A DNA stretch of 47,584 bases, the filler included, from Sphacelaria rigidula (Eukaryota): the NCBI GenBank assembly GCA_964200075.2. It is 2 parts of 2 records of this genome, joined end to end, with 100 filler letters (N's around TTAATTAATTAA, not from the genome) between each part and the next. Parts side by side here need not be neighbours in the genome. Positions count along the whole stretch, not along the records: positions 1 to 23,750 come from CAXNAA020000247.1; 1 more part is not named here. One strand, 5' to 3'. Positions 44 through 43,949 of this stretch are shown here, one piece after another; position 1 is the stretch's first letter; each line of letters starts with the position of its first letter. A program made the translations under genes and the position numbers. The notes below the pieces were generated by a model. The model was not told where the DNA came from, ran no database searches, and worked only from the letters and a program-made list of their open reading frames with translations.

Positions 44-1165
44 TCAAGCCATGTCACAGGAGCAGATAGATTCACCCTGAGCATCGCAAGCCCCAAGCTT
101 GCTTTGCTCACTCTCATCACGAAGATAACACCCCCTTGCAGCGGTGAGCATGCAAGGTGTGTCCCCAATCACGCTCCGGTCCGGCGGCCACAAGCAACCT
201 GAACCTTTGCCGTTCAGCGCTAGCTCATCGGAGCAAATTGGCTTCGCGCTTCCAACGGCACGGGCGGCAGCGGTTGGATCGAATAGTCCCGCTTCAGCCA
301 CCGCCTCCTGCTCAGCGCACTCCTGAACGGCGACAGCGGCAGCTGAGCTGCCTGCAGTCCGCTCGAGCTGCGTGGCAAATACCAGCGATGGCTGCGTGAC
401 TTGTTCGCCCTCTCCAACAGCAATACCAGCAGCATCTAAACCAATGCTTACCGTGGTACTGTTGGCGGGCGCGTACTCATGCCTACCCGTTTTGACAGAC
501 ACGTGCTGCGTCTCCTTCCCGCTCTGCACAGTGAAAACAGCTGCCCTGTTTCGTGGTTTAAGACGCGCCCTACCGACTGCACGTTTGGCGGGTTCACTGT
601 CGCGCCTATCCCCTCGGGCAGACACATGCTTCTCGGCTTTCACAGTGCAAGCATCTGCCCTGTATCGTTGTTTCAAACGCGCAGCACCTACTGCACGTTC
701 GGCGGGTGCACTGTCGTGTCTGTCCCCTCGGGCAGATACATGCTTCTCGGTTGTCACAGTGCAATCAGCCCCACCAGACGGCGCATGCTTGCGCAACGTG
801 AAAAGCAACTGCTCGTTCTCAACATCATTATCATGCTTCAAGAACGTGTCACACAGACACATAGCGATATGTTTCGGCATGAGCTCAGAACCTGCTGCCA
901 CATCAAAGAGATTTGTCCACCGCGCTTTCACCTGATGTACATCTCGCAAATACTGCTCGTATTTGCGTAAACACTCGGCCGATTTCTCGCTCGAAAACTT
1001 GCGGCCGTAGTACGGCATCTCCAGCGCCAGTACAGGAACAACACGACCATAGACGGTGACATATTCCCGCACCTCATCATGTTGAACAGTTGAACAGGCT
1101 TTGCCGCTGCCTCCACGCTTCTCATCAAGCGCCGAGCCACCACGACATATGCACATAGTGGACAA
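44..1165 (-). CDS. Gag-like protein of a probable LTR retrotransposon (no pol seen)
   Basis: Uninterrupted 373-aa ORF. The N-terminal helical segment (MPYYGRKFSSEKSAECLRKYEQYLR...ELMPKHIAMCLCD...EQLLFTLRKH) resembles Ty3/gypsy capsid regions. Context: PBS-like motif upstream and a G-run 25 nt after the stop. Assignment by resemblance only. Confidence 0.5.
   Translation of the reverse strand: MSTMCICRGGSALDEKRGGSGKACSTVQHDEVREYVTVYGRVVPVLALEMPYYGRKFSSEKSAECLRKYEQYLRDVHQVKARWTNLFDVAAGSELMPKHIAMCLCDTFLKHDNDVENEQLLFTLRKHAPSGGADCTVTTEKHVSARGDRHDSAPAERAVGAARLKQRYRADACTVKAEKHVSARGDRRDSEPAKRAVGRARLKPRNRAAVFTVQSGKETQHVSVKTGRHEYAPANSTTVSIGLDAAGIAVGEGEQVTQPSLVFATQLERTAGSSAAAVAVQECAEQEAVAEAGLFDPTAAARAVGSAKPICSDELALNGKGSGCLWPPDRSVIGDTPCMLTAARGCYLRDESEQSKLGACDAQGESICSCDMA
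495..762 (-). repeat. About 2.3 tandem copies of a 114-bp (38-aa) unit inside the gag-like ORF
   Basis: TVTTEKHVSARGDRHDSAPAERAVGAARLKQRYRADAC / TVKAEKHVSARGDRRDSEPAKRAVGRARLKPRNRAAVF / TVQ...HVS in the translation. Confidence 0.85.
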
Positions 1166-2092: not shown

Positions 2093-2715
2093 CTTCGTTT
2101 ACAATAGCCACATTGCCTGCTGCCAGACTGTCAGGACATTGGATCCATGAGCACTGCTACTGTCTGTACGGGGATGCCCCCCTTGTCCGATACGTGGGGA
2201 AGGGTCCGTGGCGCAGTGGTCGCGTCAAGCAGCTGAACGCTGGGCGTTCTCACTCAATACTTCGATTCGGAGAATGATAGTAGATGGGGAGCGGCAACTG
2301 CTGTGTGTCCAGGTGCCCCTTGGAGCAAGACGCGTTTGATTTCTGTATGACAGTATTTCCGCGAAAAATAAAATCAATAGGGATTTGAGACTGGGAAGTC
2401 TAGAATAACAAAGTCGCCAAATTCGCGTCGCAAAAAAACCGTTAGTCGAATAGTTTACCCGCAGCAGAAACCAAATTTACTTCGTGAAATTGGTACAGAG
2501 CACTGAAGCAAACGAAAAACAAGGTTGCGGCGCAGGTATCACCATGGTCACACAAGAACAGCTCCACCCTGTCGCAACGACACGCACGAAAACGGGGGCT
2601 GCGACGGCGCATTTGAAAATGCCGCAAAACTCTCCAGGAAACACTGGCGCTGAGCTACTGATCGGCGTGCAACGAGCATGTCATAATCACCAACTCGCGT
2701 TCGTGTTGAAAAACC

Positions 2716-5700
2716 TCACGCAAGGGGGGGGGATGGAGCCGAAACTGACAGCTCCATTTTCATGCTTTCCTCTTCACCAAAAGACAACCCTGAAAAAGTA
2801 TCCACCGCAGCATCTTCTGCCCGAAGGTGTTCACCAACCATCGATGGCGTCCTGCAAATACGCTTCTTCACCCTTCCATCACAAGTATCGCTGGAGTTAC
2901 TGCCAATCCTGATGCTCCCACCTTCATCAGAGGAGGTAGGGACGTCAACCCTCCTCCGCAAGTTCTGCCTGGAACACTGAAGGGCAGGAAACCCTTCCAA
3001 TTTCACCCTCGTGTGCGGCCTTGTCCCCAGAGATCCGCCTTCGGCACCCTCGGCAGGCTGCGACGGCGCGGTACCAACAAGTTCGGAACTCAGGAGCAAA
3101 ACAGGGCAAAAGCCAACATCACCCGCACCACCCCCGTGACTGATGGAATGACTTGGTTGTCCGTCCTTGGTGAAATGTTTATTGAAGATGTCTCCACACT
3201 GCCCTCGCGTGGTTGCTCGAGATACGACATGTTGGCAAATGTTACCCCGTTCGACATCAACACGGCACACACGCCGGTTCGAGCAGCCCTCATTACCGTA
3301 CTTGATGCTCGTTACATCGACCATCCCCACCCCGGCGTGGTCGGTACAGACCTCCGCCGACCGGCTTCCCCCTACATACGATGGGTGCTTCGAGCAGCCC
3401 TCGTTACCGCACTTCTTGTCCTTCACATCGATCATCCCCACCCTCGCGTGGTCAGCGCAGAACTCCGCCAACCGGCTTCCCGATACAGCATACGATGGAT
3501 GTTTGGAGCACCCCTCGTTGCCGCACTTCTTCCTCACGACATTGACCGTTCCTACCCCCGCGTGGTCGGCACAGACCTCCGCCAAGCGACTTCCCACTAC
3601 ACCATACGATGGTCGTTTGGAGCACCCCTCGTTGCCGCACTTCTTCCTCACGACATTGACCATTCCCACCGACGCGTGCTTGGCACAGAACTCCGCCAAC
3701 CGACTACCCGCTACACCATACGATGGATGTTTGGAGCAGCCCTCGTTGCCGCACTTCTTATTCACGACATTGACCGTTCCCACCTCCGCATGCTCAGCAC
3801 AGAATTCCGCCAAGCGACTTCCCGCTACACCATACGATGCTTGTTTGGAGCAGCCCTCGTTGACGCACTTCTTCTTCACGACATTGACCATCCCCACCCT
3901 CGCGTGATCAGCACAGAACTCCGCCAACCGACTTCCCGCTACATTATACAATGATTGTTTGGAGTAGCCCTCGTTCCCGCACTTCTTCCTCACGACGTTG
4001 ACCATTCCCACCCTCGCGTGATCGGCACAGAACTCCGCCAACCGACTTCCCGCTATACCGAACGATGGTTGTTTGGAGCAGCCCTCGCTGCCGCACTCCT
4101 TCCTCACAACATCAATCATCCCTTCGATGGCGTGATCAGCACAGAACTCTGCCAACGTGCTTCCCGCTTCACCATAAGATGATCGCTTGGAACAGCCCTC
4201 GTTGCCGCACTTCTTGTTCAACACATCCATCATCCGGGACCCGGCGTGGTCGGCACATAACCTCGCCTTCGAACTCCCCGCTACACCGTGAGATGGTCGT
4301 CTGGAGCAGCCCTCCTTACCGCACTTCTTGCTTTTCACATCGATCATCCCGGACCTCGCGTGGTCGGCACAGAACCCCGTCTTCCGGCTTCCCGCTTCAC
4401 CATACGATGGTTGTTTGGAGCAGCCCTCGTTGCCGCATTTTTTGCTTCTCACATCGACCATTCCCACTCTCGCGTGCTCGGCACAGAACGTCGCCTTTCG
4501 ACTCCCCGCTACACCGAAAAATGGTTGTTTGGAGCAGTCCTCGCTGCCGCACTTCTTGCTTTTCAAATCTATCATCCCCACCTCCGCGTGCCCGGCACAG
4601 AACTCCGCCGTTCGGCTTCCCGCTAGACCATACGATGGGATTTTGGGGCAGCCCTTGCTATCGCAGTTCTTCCTCAGAACGTTGATCATTTCCGCCTTCG
4701 CGTGCTCGGCACAGAACTTCGCCAACTGGCTCCCCGCTACACCATACGATGGCTTCTTCGAGCAGCCCTTGCTGCTGCACCTCTTGCTCTTTACATGGAT
4801 CATCCCCGCCTTCGCGTGCACGGCACAGAACTCCGCGGACCGGCTCCCCACCACACGGTACGATGAGATCTTGGAGCAGTCCTCGTTGCCGCACTTCTTG
4901 CTTTTCAGATCGACCATCCCCACCTCCGCGTGCCCGGCACAGAACTCCGCCTTTCGGCTTCCCGCTACACCATACGATGGGATTTTGGGGCAGCCCTTGC
5001 TGTCGCACCTCTTGCTCACTACATTAGCCATCCCTTCTCTCGCGTGCACGGCACAGAACTCCGCCTTTCGGCTTCCCGCTACACCATATGATGGTTGTTT
5101 GGAGCACCCCTCATTGCCGCAGTTCTTCCTCAGGACATTGACCATTCCCGCCCTCGCGTGCTCGGCACAGAACTCCGCCTTCCGCCTTCCCGCTACACCA
5201 TACCATGGCATCTTCGAGCAACCCTTGCTGCTGCACCTCTTGCTCTTTACATGAATCATCCCCGCCTCCGCGTGCACGGCACAGAACTTCGCGGACCGGC
5301 TCCCCGCCACACCGTACGATGGCTGTTTGGAGCAGTCCTCGCTGCCGCACTTCTTGCTTTTCAGATCGACCATCCCCACCTCCGCGTGCCCAGCACAGAA
5401 CTCCGCCTTTCGGCTTCCCGCTACACCATACGATGGTTGTTTGGAGCACCCCTCATTGCCGCAGTTCTTCCTCGGGACACTGACCATTCCCGCCCTCGCG
5501 TGCTCGGCACAGAACTCCGCCAACCGGCTGCCCGTCACACCATGCGATGGAATTTTCGAGCATCCCTCGTTGCCGCACTTCTTGCTCACGAGATTGACCA
5601 TTCTCACCCTCGCGTGATCGGCACAGAGCTCCGCCAACCGACTTCCCGCAATACCATGCGACGAGATTTTGGAGCAGCCCTCACTGCCGCACTCGTTCCT

Positions 5701-5781
5701 TACTACATCGATCATCCCTTCCCTAGCGTGATCAGCATAAACCTCCGCCAACCGGCTTCCAGCTCCACCGTGCGACGGCAT
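2716..5781 (-). CDS. EsV-1-7 repeat family protein (cysteine-rich tandem repeat, putative Zn-binding), main open segment
   Basis: 1021-aa ORF with 21 complete 38-aa units (one is 37 aa), consensus CGNEGCSKQPSYGVAGSRLAEFCAxHAxxGMVxVxxKK, plus partial units and a non-repetitive C-tail. Matches the EsV-1-7 repeat known from Ectocarpus and its virus. The ATG at 5781 lies inside a repeat, so it is probably not the ancestral start. Confidence 0.9.
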   Translation of the reverse strand: MPSHGGAGSRLAEVYADHAREGMIDVVRNECGSEGCSKISSHGIAGSRLAELCADHARVRMVNLVSKKCGNEGCSKIPSHGVTGSRLAEFCAEHARAGMVSVPRKNCGNEGCSKQPSYGVAGSRKAEFCAGHAEVGMVDLKSKKCGSEDCSKQPSYGVAGSRSAKFCAVHAEAGMIHVKSKRCSSKGCSKMPWYGVAGRRKAEFCAEHARAGMVNVLRKNCGNEGCSKQPSYGVAGSRKAEFCAVHAREGMANVVSKRCDSKGCPKIPSYGVAGSRKAEFCAGHAEVGMVDLKSKKCGNEDCSKISSYRVVGSRSAEFCAVHAKAGMIHVKSKRCSSKGCSKKPSYGVAGSQLAKFCAEHAKAEMINVLRKNCDSKGCPKIPSYGLAGSRTAEFCAGHAEVGMIDLKSKKCGSEDCSKQPFFGVAGSRKATFCAEHARVGMVDVRSKKCGNEGCSKQPSYGEAGSRKTGFCADHARSGMIDVKSKKCGKEGCSRRPSHGVAGSSKARLCADHAGSRMMDVLNKKCGNEGCSKRSSYGEAGSTLAEFCADHAIEGMIDVVRKECGSEGCSKQPSFGIAGSRLAEFCADHARVGMVNVVRKKCGNEGYSKQSLYNVAGSRLAEFCADHARVGMVNVVKKKCVNEGCSKQASYGVAGSRLAEFCAEHAEVGTVNVVNKKCGNEGCSKHPSYGVAGSRLAEFCAKHASVGMVNVVRKKCGNEGCSKRPSYGVVGSRLAEVCADHAGVGTVNVVRKKCGNEGCSKHPSYAVSGSRLAEFCADHARVGMIDVKDKKCGNEGCSKHPSYVGGSRSAEVCTDHAGVGMVDVTSIKYGNEGCSNRRVCRVDVERGNICQHVVSRATTRGQCGDIFNKHFTKDGQPSHSISHGGGAGDVGFCPVLLLSSELVGTAPSQPAEGAEGGSLGTRPHTRVKLEGFPALQCSRQNLRRRVDVPTSSDEGGSIRIGSNSSDTCDGRVKKRICRTPSMVGEHLRAEDAAVDTFSGLSFGEEESMKMELSVSAPSPPLA

Positions 5782-6140
5782 CTTCGAGCAGCTCTCGTTT
5801 GCCGCACTTCTTCCCCACTACGTTGGCCACCGCTACTCTCATGTGCTCGGCACAGAACTCCGCCAACCGGCTTCCCGCTACACCATACGATGTCTGTTTG
5901 GAGCAGCCCTCGTTGCCGCACTTTTTGCTCAACACATCGATCATCCCGGACCTGGCGTGCTCGGCACAGAACTCCGCCTTCCGACTTCCCGCTACACCGT
6001 TAGATGGTTGATGGAGCAGCCCTCGTTGCCGCACCTTCTGCGCGCCAGACTGACAATCCCCCCCTCTGCGTGGTCGGCACAGAACCCCGCCTTCCGGCTT
6101 CCCGCTACACCGTACGGTTGTTGTTTCGAGATACCGTCGT
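3270..6140 (-). repeat. 114-bp coding tandem array (about 25 units)
   Basis: Motifs ggagcagccctcgttgccgcac and ggcacagaactccgcc recur every 114 bp. Confidence 0.95.
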
Positions 6141-6377: not shown

Positions 6378-9300
6378 TGAAATTTAGAAACGGATTCAAA
6401 AACCGGGCCAAAGGTTGTCAAGTGTTCGTCAAAAGAGGCATGCAGTCCTTCGAGGGAAATGATCAGTACGGGCGGCTCATATCTTGCGTGGGCTTTCACG
6501 ATGTGATCAGATCGGGTAGGCCTTTGCTCTGTCAGAAGATCCTTTTCCAAAACATGACGTAGTGCTGCCGATTCCTCTAGAGAGCTTTGCAAAACCCTAC
6601 ATAACTCCTCAATTGAGTTCTCTATTGGACTGCGCAGCCCATGCAAGAAACAACACAAACACATGCCATAACACTAGGGCTGAAAATCAGTAGTATGAGA
6701 TGGTATTGATCGCAAAAAGCACCACAGAATGAATATATACGGTTTTCTTGAACTTTGGAAGATTTCGAGCCTCCACAAAAAATTCGTAGCCCACCCTCTG
6801 TCGCTGTCAGTTGTGTCATGCAGAAAGCCTGACAAAGTTGGAATGTATATACTTCACAAATGTCTCTGCCTAACTTTCTCCACTCAACTTCAGCCGATTG
6901 CGCCAATGAAGTGGAATGATTGAGGGGGTGTTGACGTGATCGTCGTAAGTACAATCTTGCCAATATCTGCTCGTTACGTGCTGCCGCTATAGTTGTGCGT
7001 ATTGACGCAACCGGCCGAGGACACCAAGCCTCAAAAGGCAGGCAAGTTTCTCGGTGACTGATGGCCATGAAACCTTTAGTTTCCGCAACACCCATTGGCA
7101 TGCATGTAACGCCCGAGTACGAAAAATCATCGAACAAACACGTGGAACTACACCACAACAACCGGGAGTAAACAACCGAAGTTGATCTTTCCATGAACGA
7201 GTCGGGAATCCTACCGACAACGTACGGAATCCTACTTTACTCTCGCGTCAAGACCAACTATCTTCCATGCAAAAGCTCGAAAGGACGACATACTGGAGGG
7301 AAGGCGATTGAGACGACTGGTTACAACAACAAAGGCAACAGACACTGGCATTCCTGCCTCTCTATACGAGAAGCGAAAGTCAGTGCCTTACTGAATGCTG
7401 GACCTACTCAGCCAACCAAGACTCAACGCAACCAGGAGATACGAGATTGATGGGTAAGCCGGACGCTTCGAAATTTAGGATACTAAAACTACTCGGGTTC
7501 ACTGGTTGAATGGGTAGTAGGTATCGGTGTCTACAGACTCCACACTGTCCATTCCGAAGAAAAGTCGCAAAGTTACGGTATGGCTTGAGCGGTAAAGCCC
7601 ATGCTTGAAGACATAAATTTCGCTGTGGTTATACCTTCTAAAAAGCTCATATCCTGCCTCAACACCGGTACATGACGATCTCGATGAATTCCGGAAGACA
7701 GCTCATAACGAGTGCATGGCTACATACGATGCTCAACAAATACACGATCCTCGACGGAGCAATGATGGACTGAGCGATGTACTCGAAGTTCCCCCATAGT
7801 ATGCCTCAAGGGTTGTTGCTGAGGTTGCGAATGCACATGGCTTCACATGTGCAAGGGAATACATCATATGCAACACCCCCCTTGTGTGTTACGATAAAAC
7901 ACACAACAAACTATGCGATTGGGATACCCCACTGTATGTGGTCGTGTTGGTCTTTGGTCGTTTGGTATGGACTGGAAACCGAGGTGCTGAAGCAATTAAG
8001 CACGCGTCAGCGGCACACTAAAGTAAAGTAAGCTTAGCACCAGCACTTCGGATACATCAGCCCCCGAAAAATGATGCTTCCGGCTACCGAGAAGATCAAC
8101 GCATGATAGCACCCCCGCATTATACCATCTCAGTGCACAGGGCGCGTGGAAAATGCCCGTAAGAGCACATTACACCAGCCCCCAATACGAGACCGGAGGT
8201 GATGGTTCTGAAGCACTTACTTCAGCAAGTCAAGACTTAGCTTCGTATGACCCCGGCGTTTTATTCGCGGTCACTTCGTACGCATGTGGCAACTGTTCAT
8301 TTATTGCTGGTGCCGCATACGGGCCCTCCGTGTTGTTTGATTGCCGCATACAGGCGTTGGCACAAAATAGGCATATTCAAGGTAAACAAAACGTCATCAC
8401 TCGCTATTAACGGTGGAGACTCGAGCAACAGGAATGAAAGCAACAAGTTTGGTAGAAATAGGGCATACGCAATATAGCTTCAAGACCTGCCACCATCACA
8501 TTATTGCAATCCTGTCTGATGAGTTGCTCCCACGTTGACTACATAGTGTTACATGTCTTTGATAACAATGATATCAACGCTGCAGTTCGACCAATTCTTC
8601 TGATGGCATAATGCAAAAGCAGTTCTCCACAGACAGCATTGTTTCAACCTCCCCTCCTCATGCCATATGCTCCCAACTTGCCCTTGGACGGAACAAAATG
8701 GTGAGTAGAACCCAGACCCTCGACTGGTCAGGGGATTGTCGATACAGATCGATGCTTTGCATCGCAGACAGCACCCATGCGGGTCTTGACGTGTGCTCCA
8801 GCTGGGAATATAGAGGCCATGGTGTACGTTGGGTTTGTGCCGACATGAGCTGGACACGAGGTTGCCCCCGAGCAACACGTTTCAGTGTGTACTTCCTCCC
8901 GACTCTGGATATATCGACAGATCGGTTTATCGAGTCAAAAAAGTACACGAAAAAATGGTGATGAGACAACATATGTCGAGCACGAAACAAAGGAGCGGCA
9001 TTATTATGTTATCCTCGCCTAGTGCACACCGCGGGCCGTCGATATAACGTAGCGACAGTACATACTGAGGATGTACCAGGAAAAATACTCAGGAGGTGTG
9101 TCGATGGGTTACACCCAACACACGACTTGAAATTCTCGTCGGCACATTTTGCACCTATGGGCCCACCCGTATATCCCATGCCTAACATACATACTGCGCT
9201 CATTTACATCAAGCTTCCAAGGCACTCACTTACGAACAACGTATTGCGCCAGCAATATATTGCCCATTTCGGGCATGAAACAGTTTGTGCGGTCAATACA

Positions 9301-10178: not shown

Positions 10179-10725
10179 GAAATGTACCACTTCCTCTGTC
10201 CCACAAGTAAGGGTACCGGTACGGGCCCTTAACGATACCCAATCGGTTTTTTTGTAAGGGAACTCTACGGTGTTTTTTGGATGAGAAAAATGTGTTCAAA
10301 ATTTGCAGCTTGTGCTTGAACCATGCCGCCGAACGACTGCAAAAAAAGTAGTCGGCCCAAAAATGGCTGTTCTTTGCACCTTTCCGAAAGGAAAAAGATT
10401 GTCGATTTTTTTTTTCTTGAATTCTTTTTAATCGCCCCCGCCTTCACTGGGGCTTGCTGCCAGGAAGTCCCACGCGATGAAAAAAAAAAAAAATGACACT
10501 TTTTTTCCCTCGGAAAGGGCCAAAAATTGGGCCGATTACTTTTTTTTGCAGCCGTTCGACGGCATGGTTCAAGCACGAGCTGCAAATCTGCAACACATTT
10601 TCTTGACCCAAAAAACACCTAGAGTTCATGAGAAAAAAGAAAAACGATCGGACATCGTTAAGGTCCCGTACAAATTCAGGTACCTTTACCTACGGGACAG
10701 AGGAAGTATTACTTTAGTACATTTT
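10179..10725. mobile_element. Foldback/MITE-like element, imperfect arms of about 240 bp with a loop of about 60 bp
   Basis: aactctacggtgttttttgg...tttgcagcttgtgcttgaaccatgccgccgaacgactgcaaaaaaagtagtcggccc is mirrored by gggccgattactttttttgcagccgttcgacggcatggttcaagcacgagctgcaaa...aaaaaacacctagagtt; outer cacttcctctgtccc / gggacagaggaagt. Confidence 0.85.
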
Positions 10726-23750: not shown

Positions 23751-23850
23751 NNNNNNNNNNNNNNNNNNNNNNNNNNNNNNNNNNNNNNNNNNNNTTAATT
23801 AATTAANNNNNNNNNNNNNNNNNNNNNNNNNNNNNNNNNNNNNNNNNNNN
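23751..23850. other. Assembly gap with artificial six-frame-stop spacer
   Basis: 44 N + TTAATTAATTAA (23795-23806) + 44 N = exactly 100 nt. Confidence 0.95.
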
Positions 23851-34322: not shown

Positions 34323-34690
34323 GTGTGTGTTGTGATGGGTTCGGTTCGTTTCACAGTGCCCCCCCCCCGGATGGCGCGGTGGGTCGCCAGCTCGGCGTGA
34401 AAGCCCTTTCTAGGGACCCACACTTGAAAGGATCGGTGCGTTTACTTGCGGATGTGGTGCAATAGCGAATTGGACTCGTGACATGTGACTGCACTGGGAG
34501 GGAACCTCCTCTGTACCGGTATATACATTGGAGAGACGTGTAACATCTGGTCAAGTTTATATTATACGCGGTTGACATCGTTGAAGGTGTTGGTGACTAC
34601 CAGCGTGACCGATATAGAGCGGATGAGAAAAAATGCTCGTGAGTCATGGTGCTTTTGCGGAACATTTTTTCCCCCCGTGTTGTCGTTCAG

Positions 34691-35493
34691 GTGCTGGCAG
34701 CTTACATCGACCCTCGCTACGGGAATCTCGTAGAGTTACCCCTGCCAAAGTGCATCGAGATCTGGGGTTACAATCCACAAACCGACTTCAGCAGGAGCAG
34801 CTCATCGTCGGGCACTCGCGATAATTCTTCTGCTGAAGGATCTTCCATGACAGCGGCAGTGACCAGCGGTGACCCCAATTTATCGGCGTCATCGGCTGGC
34901 GTCGGCTCGCCGAACAATAATGCGTCTTCCCACCCATCTCGTGTTTTTTCTTCCGTTTGTCGCGAGGGAGAACGAATGCCGGGGAGCGCTGGCGGCCCGG
35001 TCTTGTCAGAAAGTCGCAGAGAAGATCACGGTCGGGTCGTGGAGGGGTCCTATGACACCAGCAGCAACAACGACCGGTCATTGTCCGGACCCGACGCAAC
35101 CGTTTCGGGGACGGGGGGCGTGGAGGTACAAGTTGACGGGATGGGGGTATCCATACCGTGGGTCCCGCCGAAATTCGTGCAGTGGCTTGCTCAGCGCAGG
35201 AAGGTCCGGCGCGAGATCTGCAACATGCGGCGGGTCGGTGATCACAAAAACGTGGTCAAGCTAATATCCGTGCTCGAGTTCTTGCAGGACTCCAAGAGCA
35301 CGCTTTTTCTGATTTTGGAGCTGGTGGCCGGCGGGGAGTTACTGGATCATATCCGCCCGATGGCCGAGAGTAGCTACGGGTCGAGGAGCAGGGTAGGCGG
35401 GTCTGCATTGCGAGCGGAAGGGTCCATGCAGCGGTATTTTGGGCAGCTGTTGTCGGGTTTGTCGTACTGCCATCGACAAGGAGTGTGCCATAG
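34691..35493 (+). CDS. Kinase exon 3 (insert, helix C, subdomains IV-VIa)
   Basis: ttcag|GTG; VRREICNMRRVGDHKNVVKL...LILELVAGGELLDHI...YFGQLLSGLSYCHRQGVCH; AG|gtgaaa, phase 2. Confidence 0.92.
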
Positions 35494-36523
35494 GTGAAAG
35501 CTTGCACGTCTCTTCTATTTTACATTGTGCTTAGTGATGCTTTTTTGCGGTTTTGTTGTAAAATATTGAGTGTTCGAATCGCCTTCGCGTCTTCCAAATC
35601 GAAAATCGGTCGTGCATTTTTTTTCGTTGTGTTCCCGTTCGGTTCATACGGTGCCCCCTGGTCGCCTTGCATACACTTGTGTAGCGTTTGGTTGCATGAC
35701 CCAACATACCTCAAATCGTGGGGATACCTGCTTCTGATTCCAGGATAACCATACAAAGCTGCCCCTCCTTCTGCTCCAGAATTTCGTTGCCATTGAAGAA
35801 ATTGCGTGAATTTCCGCCCTAACCCAACACTACGGCCTTTCAGCCGCTGAATGCGTTACGCGCGAACGATCCGACCTACCTAGGTTGGTAGTCTTTGATT
35901 CAGTCATGTGTTGAATGCATCCGTTACCAATCCTGATGAGGACCAGATATACCAATACCGGCAACGTCATTCGGGATTTCGAGAATGGGCAGACCTTGAC
36001 AGGATGACAGATTCGCGTTTCGAACATTTGTCTCAGCTGTCGTGACAACAGGATGACATGCGTCCGTGTTCTATACGGCATACGCTGAGTAACACCCCCC
36101 ACGCTTACGACAACGAATAGTCAAAACCTGCAAACGCCGTCAAGATATTTTGACGGACAATGACTCTGGGTAAAGGTCCCTCCACGGTGCGGTCAAAATC
36201 ATTTGTCATGAATCCTACCCGCAATACTAAAATTGAGTAGTTGTACTGCACCAGTGTGTTGCGGTCCCAGCATAGTGCTGCCATGCCGAACTGGCGACTC
36301 CCTACATTCTGCTTGAGTTCGTACTCCCACCTGTTGGTTTTATAACCACTCAAAGAACGCATCGCGCTGTAAACGTTTTCGGTTTAGCGATTGTTTCTCC
36401 CGATTTGTGTCGATGTACTGCGGTGCACGTTTCCGACAGCTTTTTACTGACACTGCTTCCCCAAAATCATGGTTTCCGTCCTCACAAAATCATCGATAAT
36501 TTTTTGTTGTTATTACACCCCAG

Positions 36524-42400: not shown

Positions 42401-42410
42401 NNNNNNNNNN
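42401..42410. other. Assembly gap flanked by low-quality G-rich sequence
   Basis: 10 N among poly-G runs. Confidence 0.95.
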
Positions 42411-43939: not shown

Positions 43940-43949
43940 NNNNNNNNNN
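43940..43949. other. Assembly gap flanked by low-quality G-rich sequence
   Basis: 10 N among poly-G runs. Confidence 0.95.

What the first reader, a model, noticed from the sequence alone, without database searches (positions are those of the whole stretch)
2716..6140. Very long EsV-1-7 array: fixed CCCH scaffold with variable positions, a candidate modular recognition code
Seen: about 25 contiguous, intron-free 38-aa units with near-invariant C-x4-C-x16-C-x2-H, G13, G16 and G30-M31. A few positions vary from unit to unit. Position 9 reads I,I,Q,Q,M,Q,I,I,K,I,Q,Q,R,R,Q,Q,Q,H,R,H,H; positions 10-12, 19, 25, 28-29 and 33-36 also vary. Linkers are basic (KSKK, VRKK). Known: EsV-1-7 repeats occur in the Ectocarpus virus EsV-1 and in an expanded brown-algal family that includes the developmental regulator IMMEDIATE UPRIGHT; to my knowledge the ligand is not established. 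Inference: this design parallels TALE/PPR/C2H2 arrays, so each unit may read one or a few nucleotides (or a peptide) through the variable residues, giving a rearrangeable nucleic-acid binder, possibly for defence against viruses or TEs.
Basis: partly seen in the sequence, partly recalled or inferred. Interest (0 to 1): 0.78.

Follow-up and report, generated by a model that had tools for sequence, protein, structure and literature searches.

The report
Long EsV-1-7 zinc-repeat array gene
A brown-alga-type gene encodes about 21 tandem copies of a known 38-residue cysteine-rich, probably zinc-binding repeat of unknown function; patterns across the family hint that such arrays bind DNA, but this copy is an ordinary, if unusually long, member.

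Summary
The array is real. It lies on the minus strand, with 25.0 copies of a 114-nt unit at 3281-6130, and matches Pfam PF19114 EsV_1_7_cys at E=6e-290. The three 5' units are out of frame because of two 1-nt indels. The open frame (2716-5781, 1021 aa) holds 21 complete units and starts at a Met that is position 9 of a broken unit.

This is a new, very long member of the known brown-algal/giant-virus EsV-1-7 family. It is not TALE-like: 12 positions vary, and AlphaFold2 gives no rigid superhelix (pTM 0.25).

Family-wide tests give the nucleic-acid idea indirect support:
- Position 9 has the highest within-array entropy in 105 proteins.
- Positions 9, 11, 35 and 36 almost never hold D or E.
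- Those positions are better kept between orthologous units than other variable sites.
- 118 of 202 relatives carry a C-terminal Vsr-like endonuclease domain, which this gene lacks.

I found no evidence of positive selection (omega about 0.4-0.65) and none for a defence role. The ligand remains untested.

The parts
2716..5781 (-). Main open reading frame, 1021 aa. It is a single uninterrupted frame. The ATG at 5779-5781 is the codon for position 9 of a broken unit.
   Evidence: PF19114 with 22 stretches, E=6e-290; pI 9.1, net charge +54
3301..5691 (-). 21 complete in-frame EsV-1-7 units: 20 of 38 aa and one of 37 aa at 3301-3411. The scaffold is C-x4-C-x16-C-x2-H.
4552..5463 (-). Eight units with higher-order structure. 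The nearest relatives of units lie 3 or 4 units away, which indicates recent block duplication. This stretch was the one folded.
5692..5781 (-). N-terminal partial unit of the ORF (positions 9-38) with C23 replaced by Y.
5782..6140 (-). Decayed 5' units outside the main frame. They comprise a partial unit at 6034-6140, a unit at 5921-6033 with a 1-nt deletion (within 6006-6017), a unit at 5807-5920 that is intact but in another frame, and the start of the next unit with a 1-nt insertion (within 5794-5803).
   Evidence: The insertion site is covered without differences by contigs of three runs from two studies (records 6, 15, 24).
3190..3300 (-). Degenerate last unit: C1 is replaced by Y and the spacing is lost.
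2716..3189 (-). Non-repeat C-terminal tail plus stop codon. It matches no Pfam family and no relative.
3281..6130 (.). Whole tandem array at the DNA level: 25.0 copies of 114 nt.
   Evidence: family D11

Best explanation
This is a single-exon gene of the known EsV-1-7 cysteine-rich repeat family. Its closest named relatives are proteins of the brown alga Sphacelaria rigidula, at 45-58% identity.

Shown:
- A 1021-aa, strongly basic protein (pI 9.1, net charge +54) with 21 complete 38-residue C-x4-C-x16-C-x2-H units.
- The array grew by duplication of 3-4-unit blocks.
- Its 5' end has decayed through two frameshifts.
- The rest is under moderate purifying selection.

Inferred:
- Each unit folds round one zinc ion as a small knuckle, hairpin and short helical-turn module.
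- The modules are strung flexibly rather than as a rigid solenoid.
- One acid-free, basic/polar face (positions 9, 11, 18, 19, 24, 35, 36, 38) lies on a nucleic acid, DNA more likely than RNA.
- The unit-specific residues at 9, 11, 35 and 36 tune which sequence is preferred.

In giant-virus relatives the same kind of array sits in front of a Vsr-like endonuclease domain and would aim it. The algal copies, this one included, have no nuclease and would act as binders or regulators.
For: Family and anatomy:
- PF19114 scores 935 bits against a cut-off of 25.
- Units and indels are set out.
- The nearest units lie 3-4 units apart.

Constraint:
- 0 stops in 828 codons, against 19 and 50 in the other same-strand frames.
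- pN/pS among units is 0.53.
- A relative about 1-2% diverged (run X9) shows 11 nonsynonymous and 8 synonymous differences.

Module shape: in the AlphaFold2 model each unit has strands at about 12-14 and 31-33 and a turn at 24-26.

The binding face:
- In 822 canonical units the acidic fraction is 0.02 at position 9, 0.00 at 11, 0.04 at 35, 0.07 at 36, and 0.01-0.04 at 18, 19, 24 and 38. It is 0.11-0.44 at positions 2, 3, 4, 7, 15, 21, 25, 28 and 29.
- Position 9 has the highest mean within-array entropy (1.92 bits) over 105 proteins. It is the top site in 23 of 105, and the next best site is top in 11 of 105. It exceeds 14 of 16 other variable positions at uncorrected Wilcoxon p of 0.002 or less.
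- It ranks first in both the nuclease-fused set (54 proteins) and the non-fused set (51 proteins).
- Between orthologous viral units, the mismatch divided by the within-array mismatch is 0.41-0.52 at positions 9, 11, 35 and 36. It is 0.71-1.03 at positions 3, 8, 15, 18, 24, 25, 29 and 38.

Domain fusions:
- 118 of 202 retrieved relatives carry one conserved C-terminal domain, with the motif E-x-(D/E)-E-x-x-H in 117 of 118.
- Its model (pLDDT 77.5, pTM 0.75) matches Vsr endonuclease 1cw0_A best (Z 8.7, rmsd 3.6, 131 residues aligned). Next come homing endonuclease I-Bth0305I (Z 7.5) and the putative endonuclease-like protein 3hrl_A (Z 6.9).
- All the top weak Foldseek rows I recognise are nucleases: arenavirus endonucleases, R2 retrotransposon protein, SfsA, McrBC.
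- A Tc1/mariner transposase with an N-terminal EsV-1-7 domain is reported in PMC12477816 (passage read).
Against: - No binding of zinc or nucleic acid was tested or can be tested here.
- The array model is of low confidence (pLDDT 68.9, pTM 0.25) and has no significant match among solved structures. No coordinates are returned, so I could not check that positions 9, 11, 35 and 36 lie on one face.
- The nuclease fusion is absent from this gene, from the window in six frames, and from its 11 closest relatives. Transfer of function from the viral proteins is therefore an inference.
- The Vsr match at Z 8.7 lies near the level that the tool reports for models without true relatives. Pfam and PHROGs do not recognise the domain.
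- The excess of position 9 over the other variable positions is modest (1.92 against about 1.5-1.8 bits), and it does not differ from positions 35 and 36 (p 0.13 and 0.15).
- Covariation of position 9 with other positions is weak (best z 3.0).
- No site shows pN above about 1.0-1.6 times mean pS.
- The 202 proteins were retrieved with this protein as query and are not independent. The ortholog test rests on 4 pairs and about 30 unit pairs.
- The gene has a decayed 5' end, one C6-to-Y unit and upstream ATGs, so it may be losing function.
Confidence: 0.5

Rival explanations
1. The array is a protein-protein (or other non-nucleic-acid) interaction scaffold, as many multi-zinc-module proteins such as LIM, PHD or B-box arrays are. 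On this reading the variable positions individualise docking sites or inter-unit packing.
For: - The only weak structural neighbours of the array model are multi-zinc modules that bind proteins or peptides: PZP, LIM and the nsp13 zinc-binding domain, all at E>2.
- The one genetically studied member, IMM, is described as a protein of unknown function with no DNA-binding shown (passages read).
- Unit-specific residues that are kept between orthologs would also fit fixed packing or fixed partners.
Against: - It does not explain why positions 9, 11, 18, 19, 24, 35, 36 and 38 nearly exclude D/E while other surface positions hold 11-44% acidic residues.
- It does not explain the net charge of +54.
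- It does not explain the recurrent placement of such arrays in front of a nuclease-like domain (118 of 202) and of a transposase.
Confidence: 0.22
2. The array is a decaying or functionless product of runaway tandem duplication in a fast-expanding family. On this reading the variable positions are simply the least constrained ones.
For: - Two frameshifts put the 5' three units out of frame. One of them is confirmed in contigs of three runs from two studies.
- The ORF starts inside a unit. One unit has lost C6, the first has lost C23, and the last is degenerate.
- Constraint is relaxed: pN/pS is 0.53, and the nearest unit pairs show 60 nonsynonymous against 32 synonymous codon changes.
- No orthologue above 58% identity was found among 1.84 billion cluster representatives.
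Against: - A frame of 1021 codons stays open although units differ by 23% and the other frames are full of stops.
- The ratios lie below neutrality within the array and against a diverged relative.
- The alphabet at position 9 is restricted: Q, I, R, H, M and K here, and 2% acidic family-wide. That is not what unconstrained drift gives.
Confidence: 0.13
3. The array carries a strict TALE/PPR-like code. A rigid superhelix wraps a nucleic acid, and each unit reads one or a few nucleotides through position 9 and its neighbours.
For: - Position 9 is the most variable site within arrays, both here and family-wide.
- Its common residues R, Q, H and K are, from general knowledge, typical base-contacting side chains.
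- Unit identity is kept between orthologs.
- Unit number changes fast between close viral orthologs: 13 against 17 units at 86.5% identity.
Against: - Twelve positions vary, not one or two.
- There is no confident inter-unit geometry (pTM 0.25).
- Position 9 is not separable from positions 35 and 36.
- There is no sign of diversifying selection.
- No target is known, so no code can be read.
Confidence: 0.12

Closest known systems
EsV-1-7 domain proteins of brown algae, including IMMEDIATE UPRIGHT (Pfam PF19114)
   Same: The 38-residue C-x4-C-x16-C-x2-H repeat in tandem is the same. The closest named relatives are from Sphacelaria rigidula. The family is described as hugely expanded in brown algae and as a possible novel zinc finger of unknown function (passages read).
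   Different: This copy has more units than anything I retrieved. The same loose pattern gives 20 here, at most 16 in 202 database relatives, and 18 in a viral locus. It has no non-repeat N-terminal domain such as the one used to define IMM orthologues (passage). Its 190-aa tail matches nothing. I could not see the supplementary tables of family members (bioRxiv supplements are closed), so longer annotated members may exist.
Giant-virus proteins with an EsV-1-7 array followed by a zinc ribbon and a Vsr-like endonuclease domain
   Same: The repeat, the position-9/35/36 variability and the acid-free positions are the same.
   Different: They hold 7-18 units and a conserved C-terminal domain of about 200 aa. 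This gene and window lack that domain.
TcMar-2_Ec32 Tc1/mariner transposase with an N-terminal EsV-1-7 domain (PMC12477816, passage read)
   Same: An EsV-1-7 module sits in front of a DNA-processing enzyme.
   Different: That is a transposon protein. No transposase is present here, and I saw no sequence of it.
TALE, PPR and C2H2 zinc-finger arrays (functional analogy only)
   Same: All are tandem small modules with a fixed scaffold and a few unit-specific positions. Arrays change length by unit duplication.
   Different: The ligand set (CCCH), spacing and predicted shape differ. Variation is spread over 12 positions. No superhelix is predicted, no code or target is known, and no positive selection was detected.
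Vsr endonuclease, homing endonuclease I-Bth0305I and putative endonuclease-like protein 3hrl_A (for the viral relatives' C-terminal domain only)
   Same: They are the best structural matches: Z 8.7, 7.5 and 6.9. Acidic and His motifs are conserved in 117 of 118.
   Different: There is no sequence-level match in Pfam, PHROGs or the PDB. Activity is untested.

Membership tests
EsV-1-7 cysteine-rich repeat family (Pfam PF19114) | Match to the family profile above the curated cut-off | tested here: met
   935.1 bits against a cut-off of 25, with 22 stretches in the ORF. A further 79.3 bits and 2 stretches lie in the upstream out-of-frame ORF.
EsV-1-7 cysteine-rich repeat family (Pfam PF19114) | 38-residue unit C-x4-C-x16-C-x2-H-x12 in tandem (motif as I recall it from Macaisne et al. 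2017, which was not held) | tested here: met
   Of the 21 complete in-frame units, 20 have all four ligands and 20 have the exact spacing. The period is 114 nt.
EsV-1-7 cysteine-rich repeat family (Pfam PF19114) | Zinc binding by the CCCH set | not testable with these tools
   The folding tool has no metal and returns no coordinates. The literature calls it only a possible zinc finger.
IMMEDIATE UPRIGHT orthologue | IMM-specific non-repeat N-terminal domain followed by five repeats (criterion in the methods passage of 10.1101/2024.02.19.579948) | tested here: not met
   The ORF begins inside a repeat and has no non-repeat N-terminal domain. Upstream there are only decayed units. No IMM sequence was available for a direct comparison.
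TALE-like repeat code | Near-identical repeats with one hypervariable residue pair | tested here: not met
   Twelve positions exceed 1.2 bits (9, 10, 19, 21, 25, 28, 29, 32, 33, 35, 36, 38). Units match at 77% at the DNA level.
TALE-like repeat code | Regular superhelix with the variable residue facing the ligand | tested here: inconclusive
   AlphaFold2 of 8 units gives pLDDT 68.9 and pTM 0.25. The alignment was shallow (36 rows), no zinc was modelled, and no coordinates are returned.
TALE-like repeat code | One repeat reads one defined nucleotide | not testable with these tools
   No target is known.
C2H2 zinc-finger arrays | C-x2-4-C-x12-H-x3-5-H beta-beta-alpha unit | tested here: not met
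   The ligand order is C,C,C,H with spacings 4, 16 and 2. There was no C2H2 Pfam match at E up to 0.01.
Array plus Vsr-like endonuclease architecture (giant-virus relatives) | Conserved C-terminal domain with the motifs PD, E-x-(D/E)-E-x-x-H and R-x-N-P-D | tested here: not met
   A profile of the domain finds only its repeat-like N-terminal part in the ORF. Nothing covering the core turns up in six frames of the window.

The most novel reading that the evidence does not exclude
EsV-1-7 arrays may be a so far unrecognised class of modular, length-variable DNA-recognition domain. Each zinc module would contact a few base pairs through positions 9, 11, 35 and 36. Giant viruses would use such arrays to aim a Vsr-type (homing-like) endonuclease. 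Brown algae would have kept the aiming part without the nuclease and multiplied it into hundreds of regulators. The 21-unit protein of this window would then be one of the longest readers, with a footprint of tens of base pairs.
Probability: 0.17. Interest if true: 0.85.

Novelty: new member of a known kind. Interest (0 to 1): 0.48.

Why it matters
The EsV-1-7 family is described as one of the largest brown-algal gene amplifications, with up to 335 members in a genome. It includes a developmental regulator, yet its biochemical function is unknown.

The array in this window adds only a very long member. The family-wide patterns found while checking it turn "what do these repeats bind?" into a concrete experiment:
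- Four unit-specific, acid-free positions are kept between orthologs.
- Most long arrays in giant-virus sequences sit in front of a Vsr-like endonuclease domain.

The experiment is to test DNA binding and cleavage targets of a viral array-nuclease protein, and then to swap positions 9, 11, 35 and 36. If such arrays read DNA modularly, that would explain the family's expansion as a supply of new regulators and give a new natural scaffold for DNA recognition. If they do not, the repeat is one more zinc-stabilised interaction module.

Tried and rejected
- **Whole genome:** not held.
- **Macaisne et al. 2017:** not held. What I say of it is recalled, or taken from citing passages.
- **Ancestral-state methods:** I ran no site-wise selection test that needs ancestral states and used pairwise counts only.
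- **RNA evidence:** no RNA holder is listed for the stretch. Runs X5 and X6 are only guessed to be RNA. Their contigs have no cover in 6475-7300, while X1 and X9 do.
- **5' deletion:** the site (6006-6017) is not covered by any listed contig piece, so only the insertion at 5794-5803 has independent support.
- **Structure of the array:**
  - The PDB sequence search with 8 units found 0 matches at E up to 10.
  - Foldseek with the array model found nothing at E up to 0.001.
  - ESM Atlas with 3 units gave no usable hit.
- **Covariation:** mutual information of position 9 with 18 other positions was weak, at z 3.0 or less.
- **Related loci:** The search for related loci with alignment A1 failed because it had no conserved stretch. 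I then used the single protein P0015.
- **Copy number of the nuclease-type gene:** one full match in each of the 2 viral records that were held; 3 of the 5 asked for were not held. There is thus no sign of a multi-copy selfish family there.
- **Nuclease-like domain by sequence:**
  - A PDB sequence profile matched only its zinc ribbon weakly.
  - Pfam and PHROGs found no family.
  - Atlas leads to PvuRts1I_N (0.89) and DUF559 (0.87) fall under the tool's 0.9 line.
- **DUF1490 Pfam hit:** it has 0 stretches that pass on their own, and I take it as compositional.
- **First unit count:** my own unit profile gave a maximum of 12 units in relatives. That undercounted, so I replaced it with a looser pattern.
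- **Neighbouring repeat:** the 114-nt two-copy repeat at 515-742 is unrelated to the array.
- **Complex prediction:** not used, because it cannot take nucleic acids.


Full report
**1. What is there**

Tandem Repeats Finder reports one array at 3281-6130: period 114 nt, 25.0 copies, 77% matches, 1% indels. The repeat finder finds 25 copies in register (family D11). The coding strand is minus.

The longest frame is 2716-5781, 1021 aa. Pfam scores it 935 bits for PF19114 EsV_1_7_cys (cut-off 25) with 22 matched stretches. A 100-aa ORF at 5732-6034 in another frame scores 79 bits with 2 stretches.

A pattern scan finds units starting at 5691 and then every 114 nt down to 3411, plus one at 5920 in the other frame. 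The frame therefore holds 21 complete units:
- Twenty units are 38 aa long and one is 37 aa.
- Twenty of the 21 have all four ligands C1, C6, C23 and H26. The unit at 3981 has Y6.
- Twenty of the 21 have the exact spacing.

No other EsV-1-7 unit occurs in the remaining 44 kb of the window.

**2. The ends of the array**

The 5' three unit-lengths are broken. Alignment of each to an intact unit shows a 1-nt deletion within 6006-6017 and a 1-nt insertion within 5794-5803. These match the unit spacings of 113 and 115 nt.

Reading from upstream therefore hits a stop. The first in-frame ATG (5779-5781) is the codon for position 9 of a unit that has also lost C23. The insertion site is covered, without a single difference or gap, by contigs of three public runs from two studies (records 6, 15, 24). 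It is therefore not an error of this assembly. The deletion site is not covered by any listed piece.

At the 3' end there is one degenerate unit (3190-3300). A tail of about 160 aa follows and matches no Pfam family and no database protein.

**3.

It holds. Over the 21 units of exactly 38 aa, C1, G16, C23, A24, H26 and K37 are invariant. G13 is 18/21, G30 17/21 and M31 18/21.

Position 9 has the highest entropy, 2.16 bits. Positions 28 (2.07), 25 (2.06), 36 (2.00) and 35 (1.87) follow. Twelve positions exceed 1.2 bits.

The array is not chance. The coding frame has no stop in 828 codons, while the other two frames of that strand have 19 and 50.

**4. How the array evolves**

The nearest relative of most middle units lies 3 or 4 units away, at 6-14 differences in 114 nt. 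The array therefore grew by block duplication.

Several measures of selection agree on moderate constraint:
- Pairwise counts over all units give pS 0.36 and pN 0.19, a ratio of 0.53.
- Eight independent nearest-neighbour pairs show 60 codons with amino-acid changes and 32 with synonymous changes only. Positions 9 and 28 each changed in 5 of 8 pairs, against a mean of 1.6 per column. That is suggestive but not significant once 38 columns are considered.
- Per-column pN over mean pS peaks at 1.62 (position 35) and 1.52 (position 9). That is within what neutral sites would give.
- Contigs of run X9, a relative about 1-2% diverged, differ at 19 places in the frame: 11 nonsynonymous and 8 synonymous, none at position 9. 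If I assume about three nonsynonymous sites per synonymous site, that is about half the neutral ratio.

I found no evidence of positive selection. A site test needing ancestral states could not be run.

**5. Relatives**

An exhaustive HMMER search of 1.84 billion cluster representatives finds 6271 proteins at E up to 0.001. The best is 877 aa long and 48% identical, and no hit covers the tail. Of the 10 closest proteins looked up, the 3 that carry a name are from the brown alga Sphacelaria rigidula.

With one loose pattern, the window frame has 20 units. The 202 retrieved proteins have at most 16. Giant-virus loci have up to 18. The array is thus the longest I saw, but not by a wide margin.

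The literature I could read describes the family as follows:
- It may be a novel zinc finger, with up to 335 members per brown-algal genome, often in gene clusters (10.1101/2024.02.19.579948, passages).
- It has a viral affinity and is enriched in a developmental co-expression module (10.64898/2026.04.27.720984, passages).
- IMM is a protein of unknown function (PMC7457493, passage).

**6. Is position 9 special across the family?**

From the 202 proteins I kept units with the exact spacing plus H26 and M31. That gave 822 units in 160 proteins; units of other spacing were dropped. Within that set, 105 proteins have five or more such units (675 units).

- Mean within-array entropy is highest at position 9 (1.92 bits). 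Positions 36 (1.84), 35 (1.81) and 11 (1.68) follow.
- Position 9 is the top site in 23 of 105 proteins. The next best site is top in 11.
- It exceeds 14 of 16 other variable positions (uncorrected Wilcoxon p from 0.002 to 2e-11). It does not exceed 35 (p 0.13) or 36 (p 0.15).
- Family-wide entropy is highest elsewhere, at positions 7, 2 and 14. Position 9 is therefore not simply the least constrained site.

The alphabet is restricted. The acidic fraction is 0.02 at position 9, 0.00 at 11, 0.04 at 35, 0.07 at 36, and 0.01-0.04 at 18, 19, 24 and 38. It is 0.11-0.44 at positions 2, 3, 4, 7, 15, 21, 25, 28 and 29. R and Q make up 44% of position 9. Both results hold separately for nuclease-fused and non-fused proteins. 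In the window, position 9 is Q, I, R, H, M or K and never acidic.

**7. Are unit identities kept?**

I took DNA of giant-virus relatives from IMG/VR. I compared four independent orthologue pairs, 60-87% identical, over 1206 aligned unit codons.

- Overall pN/pS is 0.43, and no position exceeds 1.04 times mean pS.
- Position 9 differs in 37% of about 30 orthologous unit pairs, fewer than positions 3, 25, 29, 38, 24, 8, 15, 7, 4, 35 and 36.
- Within the same arrays it has the highest mismatch, 0.87.
- The ratio of orthologue mismatch to within-array mismatch is 0.43 at position 9, 0.41 at 11, 0.47 at 36 and 0.52 at 35. It is 0.71-1.03 at positions 3, 8, 15, 18, 24, 25, 29 and 38.

The most unit-specific positions are therefore not the fastest between orthologues. 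This fits a per-unit role and argues against plain neutrality. The sample is small and comes from viral relatives, not from this gene.

**8. Structure**

AlphaFold2 on 8 units, with a 36-row alignment, gives pLDDT 68.9 and pTM 0.25. Each unit shows short strands at about 12-14 and 31-33 and a turn at 24-26. This is a chain of small modules without a confident mutual arrangement, so a rigid superhelix is not supported. A shallow alignment and the lack of zinc may be to blame.

No solved structure matches by sequence or by fold at E up to 0.001. The weak rows are multi-zinc modules. The tool returns no coordinates, so the test of whether position 9 faces inward could not be made.

**9. A lead from domain architecture**

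In alignment A1 many relatives shared a C-terminal region. A profile of it (A2, 11 proteins) finds the core in 118 of the 202 proteins. In 116 of those it lies within 60 residues of the C-terminus. The motif E-x-(D/E)-E-x-x-H is present in 117, R-x-N-P-(D/E/N) in 117, and PD in 115.

Its model has pLDDT 77.5 and pTM 0.75. An all-against-all structural search ranks these matches first:
- Vsr endonuclease 1cw0_A: Z 8.7, rmsd 3.6, 131 residues aligned.
- Homing endonuclease I-Bth0305I: Z 7.5.
- Putative endonuclease-like protein 3hrl_A: Z 6.9.

The top weak Foldseek rows that I recognise are all nucleases. Z 8.7 is close to the tool's stated noise level, and Pfam and PHROGs do not know the domain. 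I therefore call it probably, not certainly, a Vsr-like nuclease.

The carriers I fetched as DNA lie on giant-virus contigs. Close orthologues differ in unit number: 13 against 17 units at 86.5% identity.

In the held library, "EsV-1-7" together with "endonuclease" occurs only in PMC12477816. That paper reports a Tc1/mariner transposase with an N-terminal EsV-1-7 domain (passage). I found no printed description of the array-nuclease architecture in that library.

This gene, the window in six frames, and the 11 closest relatives all lack the domain.

**10. Reading**

The gene is a new, very long member of a known family. The most likely mechanism is an array of zinc modules that lies on a nucleic acid with an acid-free face. 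Positions 9, 11, 35 and 36 would tune the preference. DNA is favoured because of the nuclease and transposase fusions. I put this at about 0.5.

A strict TALE-like code is much less likely, about 0.12-0.17. A protein-interaction scaffold (0.22) and a decaying, functionless array (0.13) remain open. Nothing speaks for or against a defence role. Expression is unknown.

Noticed in passing
relatives P0005, P0008, P0011, P0015, P0019, P0021, P0024, P0026, P0028, P0035, P0036 and 107 others; loci L001-L014, L019: Most long EsV-1-7 arrays outside brown algae end in a conserved domain of about 200 aa (zinc ribbon plus a Vsr-like endonuclease fold) that Pfam and PHROGs do not recognise. The loci I fetched lie on giant-virus contigs.
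   Followed up: partly
L005 versus L006 (also L012): Viral orthologues 86.5% identical differ in unit number (13 against 17 by one pattern). Arrays therefore gain and lose units quickly, and L012 reaches 18 units.
   Followed up: partly
window 515-742: Two tandem copies of a 114-nt unit (81% alike) lie inside the neighbouring 373-codon open frame 44-1165 (minus strand). The period is the same as in the EsV-1-7 array, but the sequence is unrelated and has no cysteine motif. That frame has no Pfam match.
   Followed up: partly
window 2300-2500: Contig depth is about 100-fold higher than in the flanks in the runs laid (16,745 in X1 and 7,930 in X9 for 2300-2466). Many loose ends lie at 2454 and 2493. 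This points to a multi-copy element just downstream of the gene.
   Followed up: no
window 10181-10715: There are nested inverted repeats: 79-nt arms that are 87% complementary and 193 nt apart, inside 37-nt arms that are 81% complementary. This may be a small foldback or MITE-like element.
   Followed up: no
window 34643-35497: An open frame on the plus strand matches part of a protein kinase domain (PF00069, E=2.6e-12). It is probably one exon of a split gene.
   Followed up: no
window 23751-23850, 42401-42410, 43940-43949: Four runs of N (108 bases in all) mark assembly gaps.
   Followed up: no
P0020 (relative): Its EsV-1-7 units also match Pfam PF24906 Zf_WRKY19 (E=5e-13, 7 stretches). This hints that a land-plant zinc-finger family overlaps this motif. 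The window protein gave no such match at E up to 0.01.
   Followed up: no
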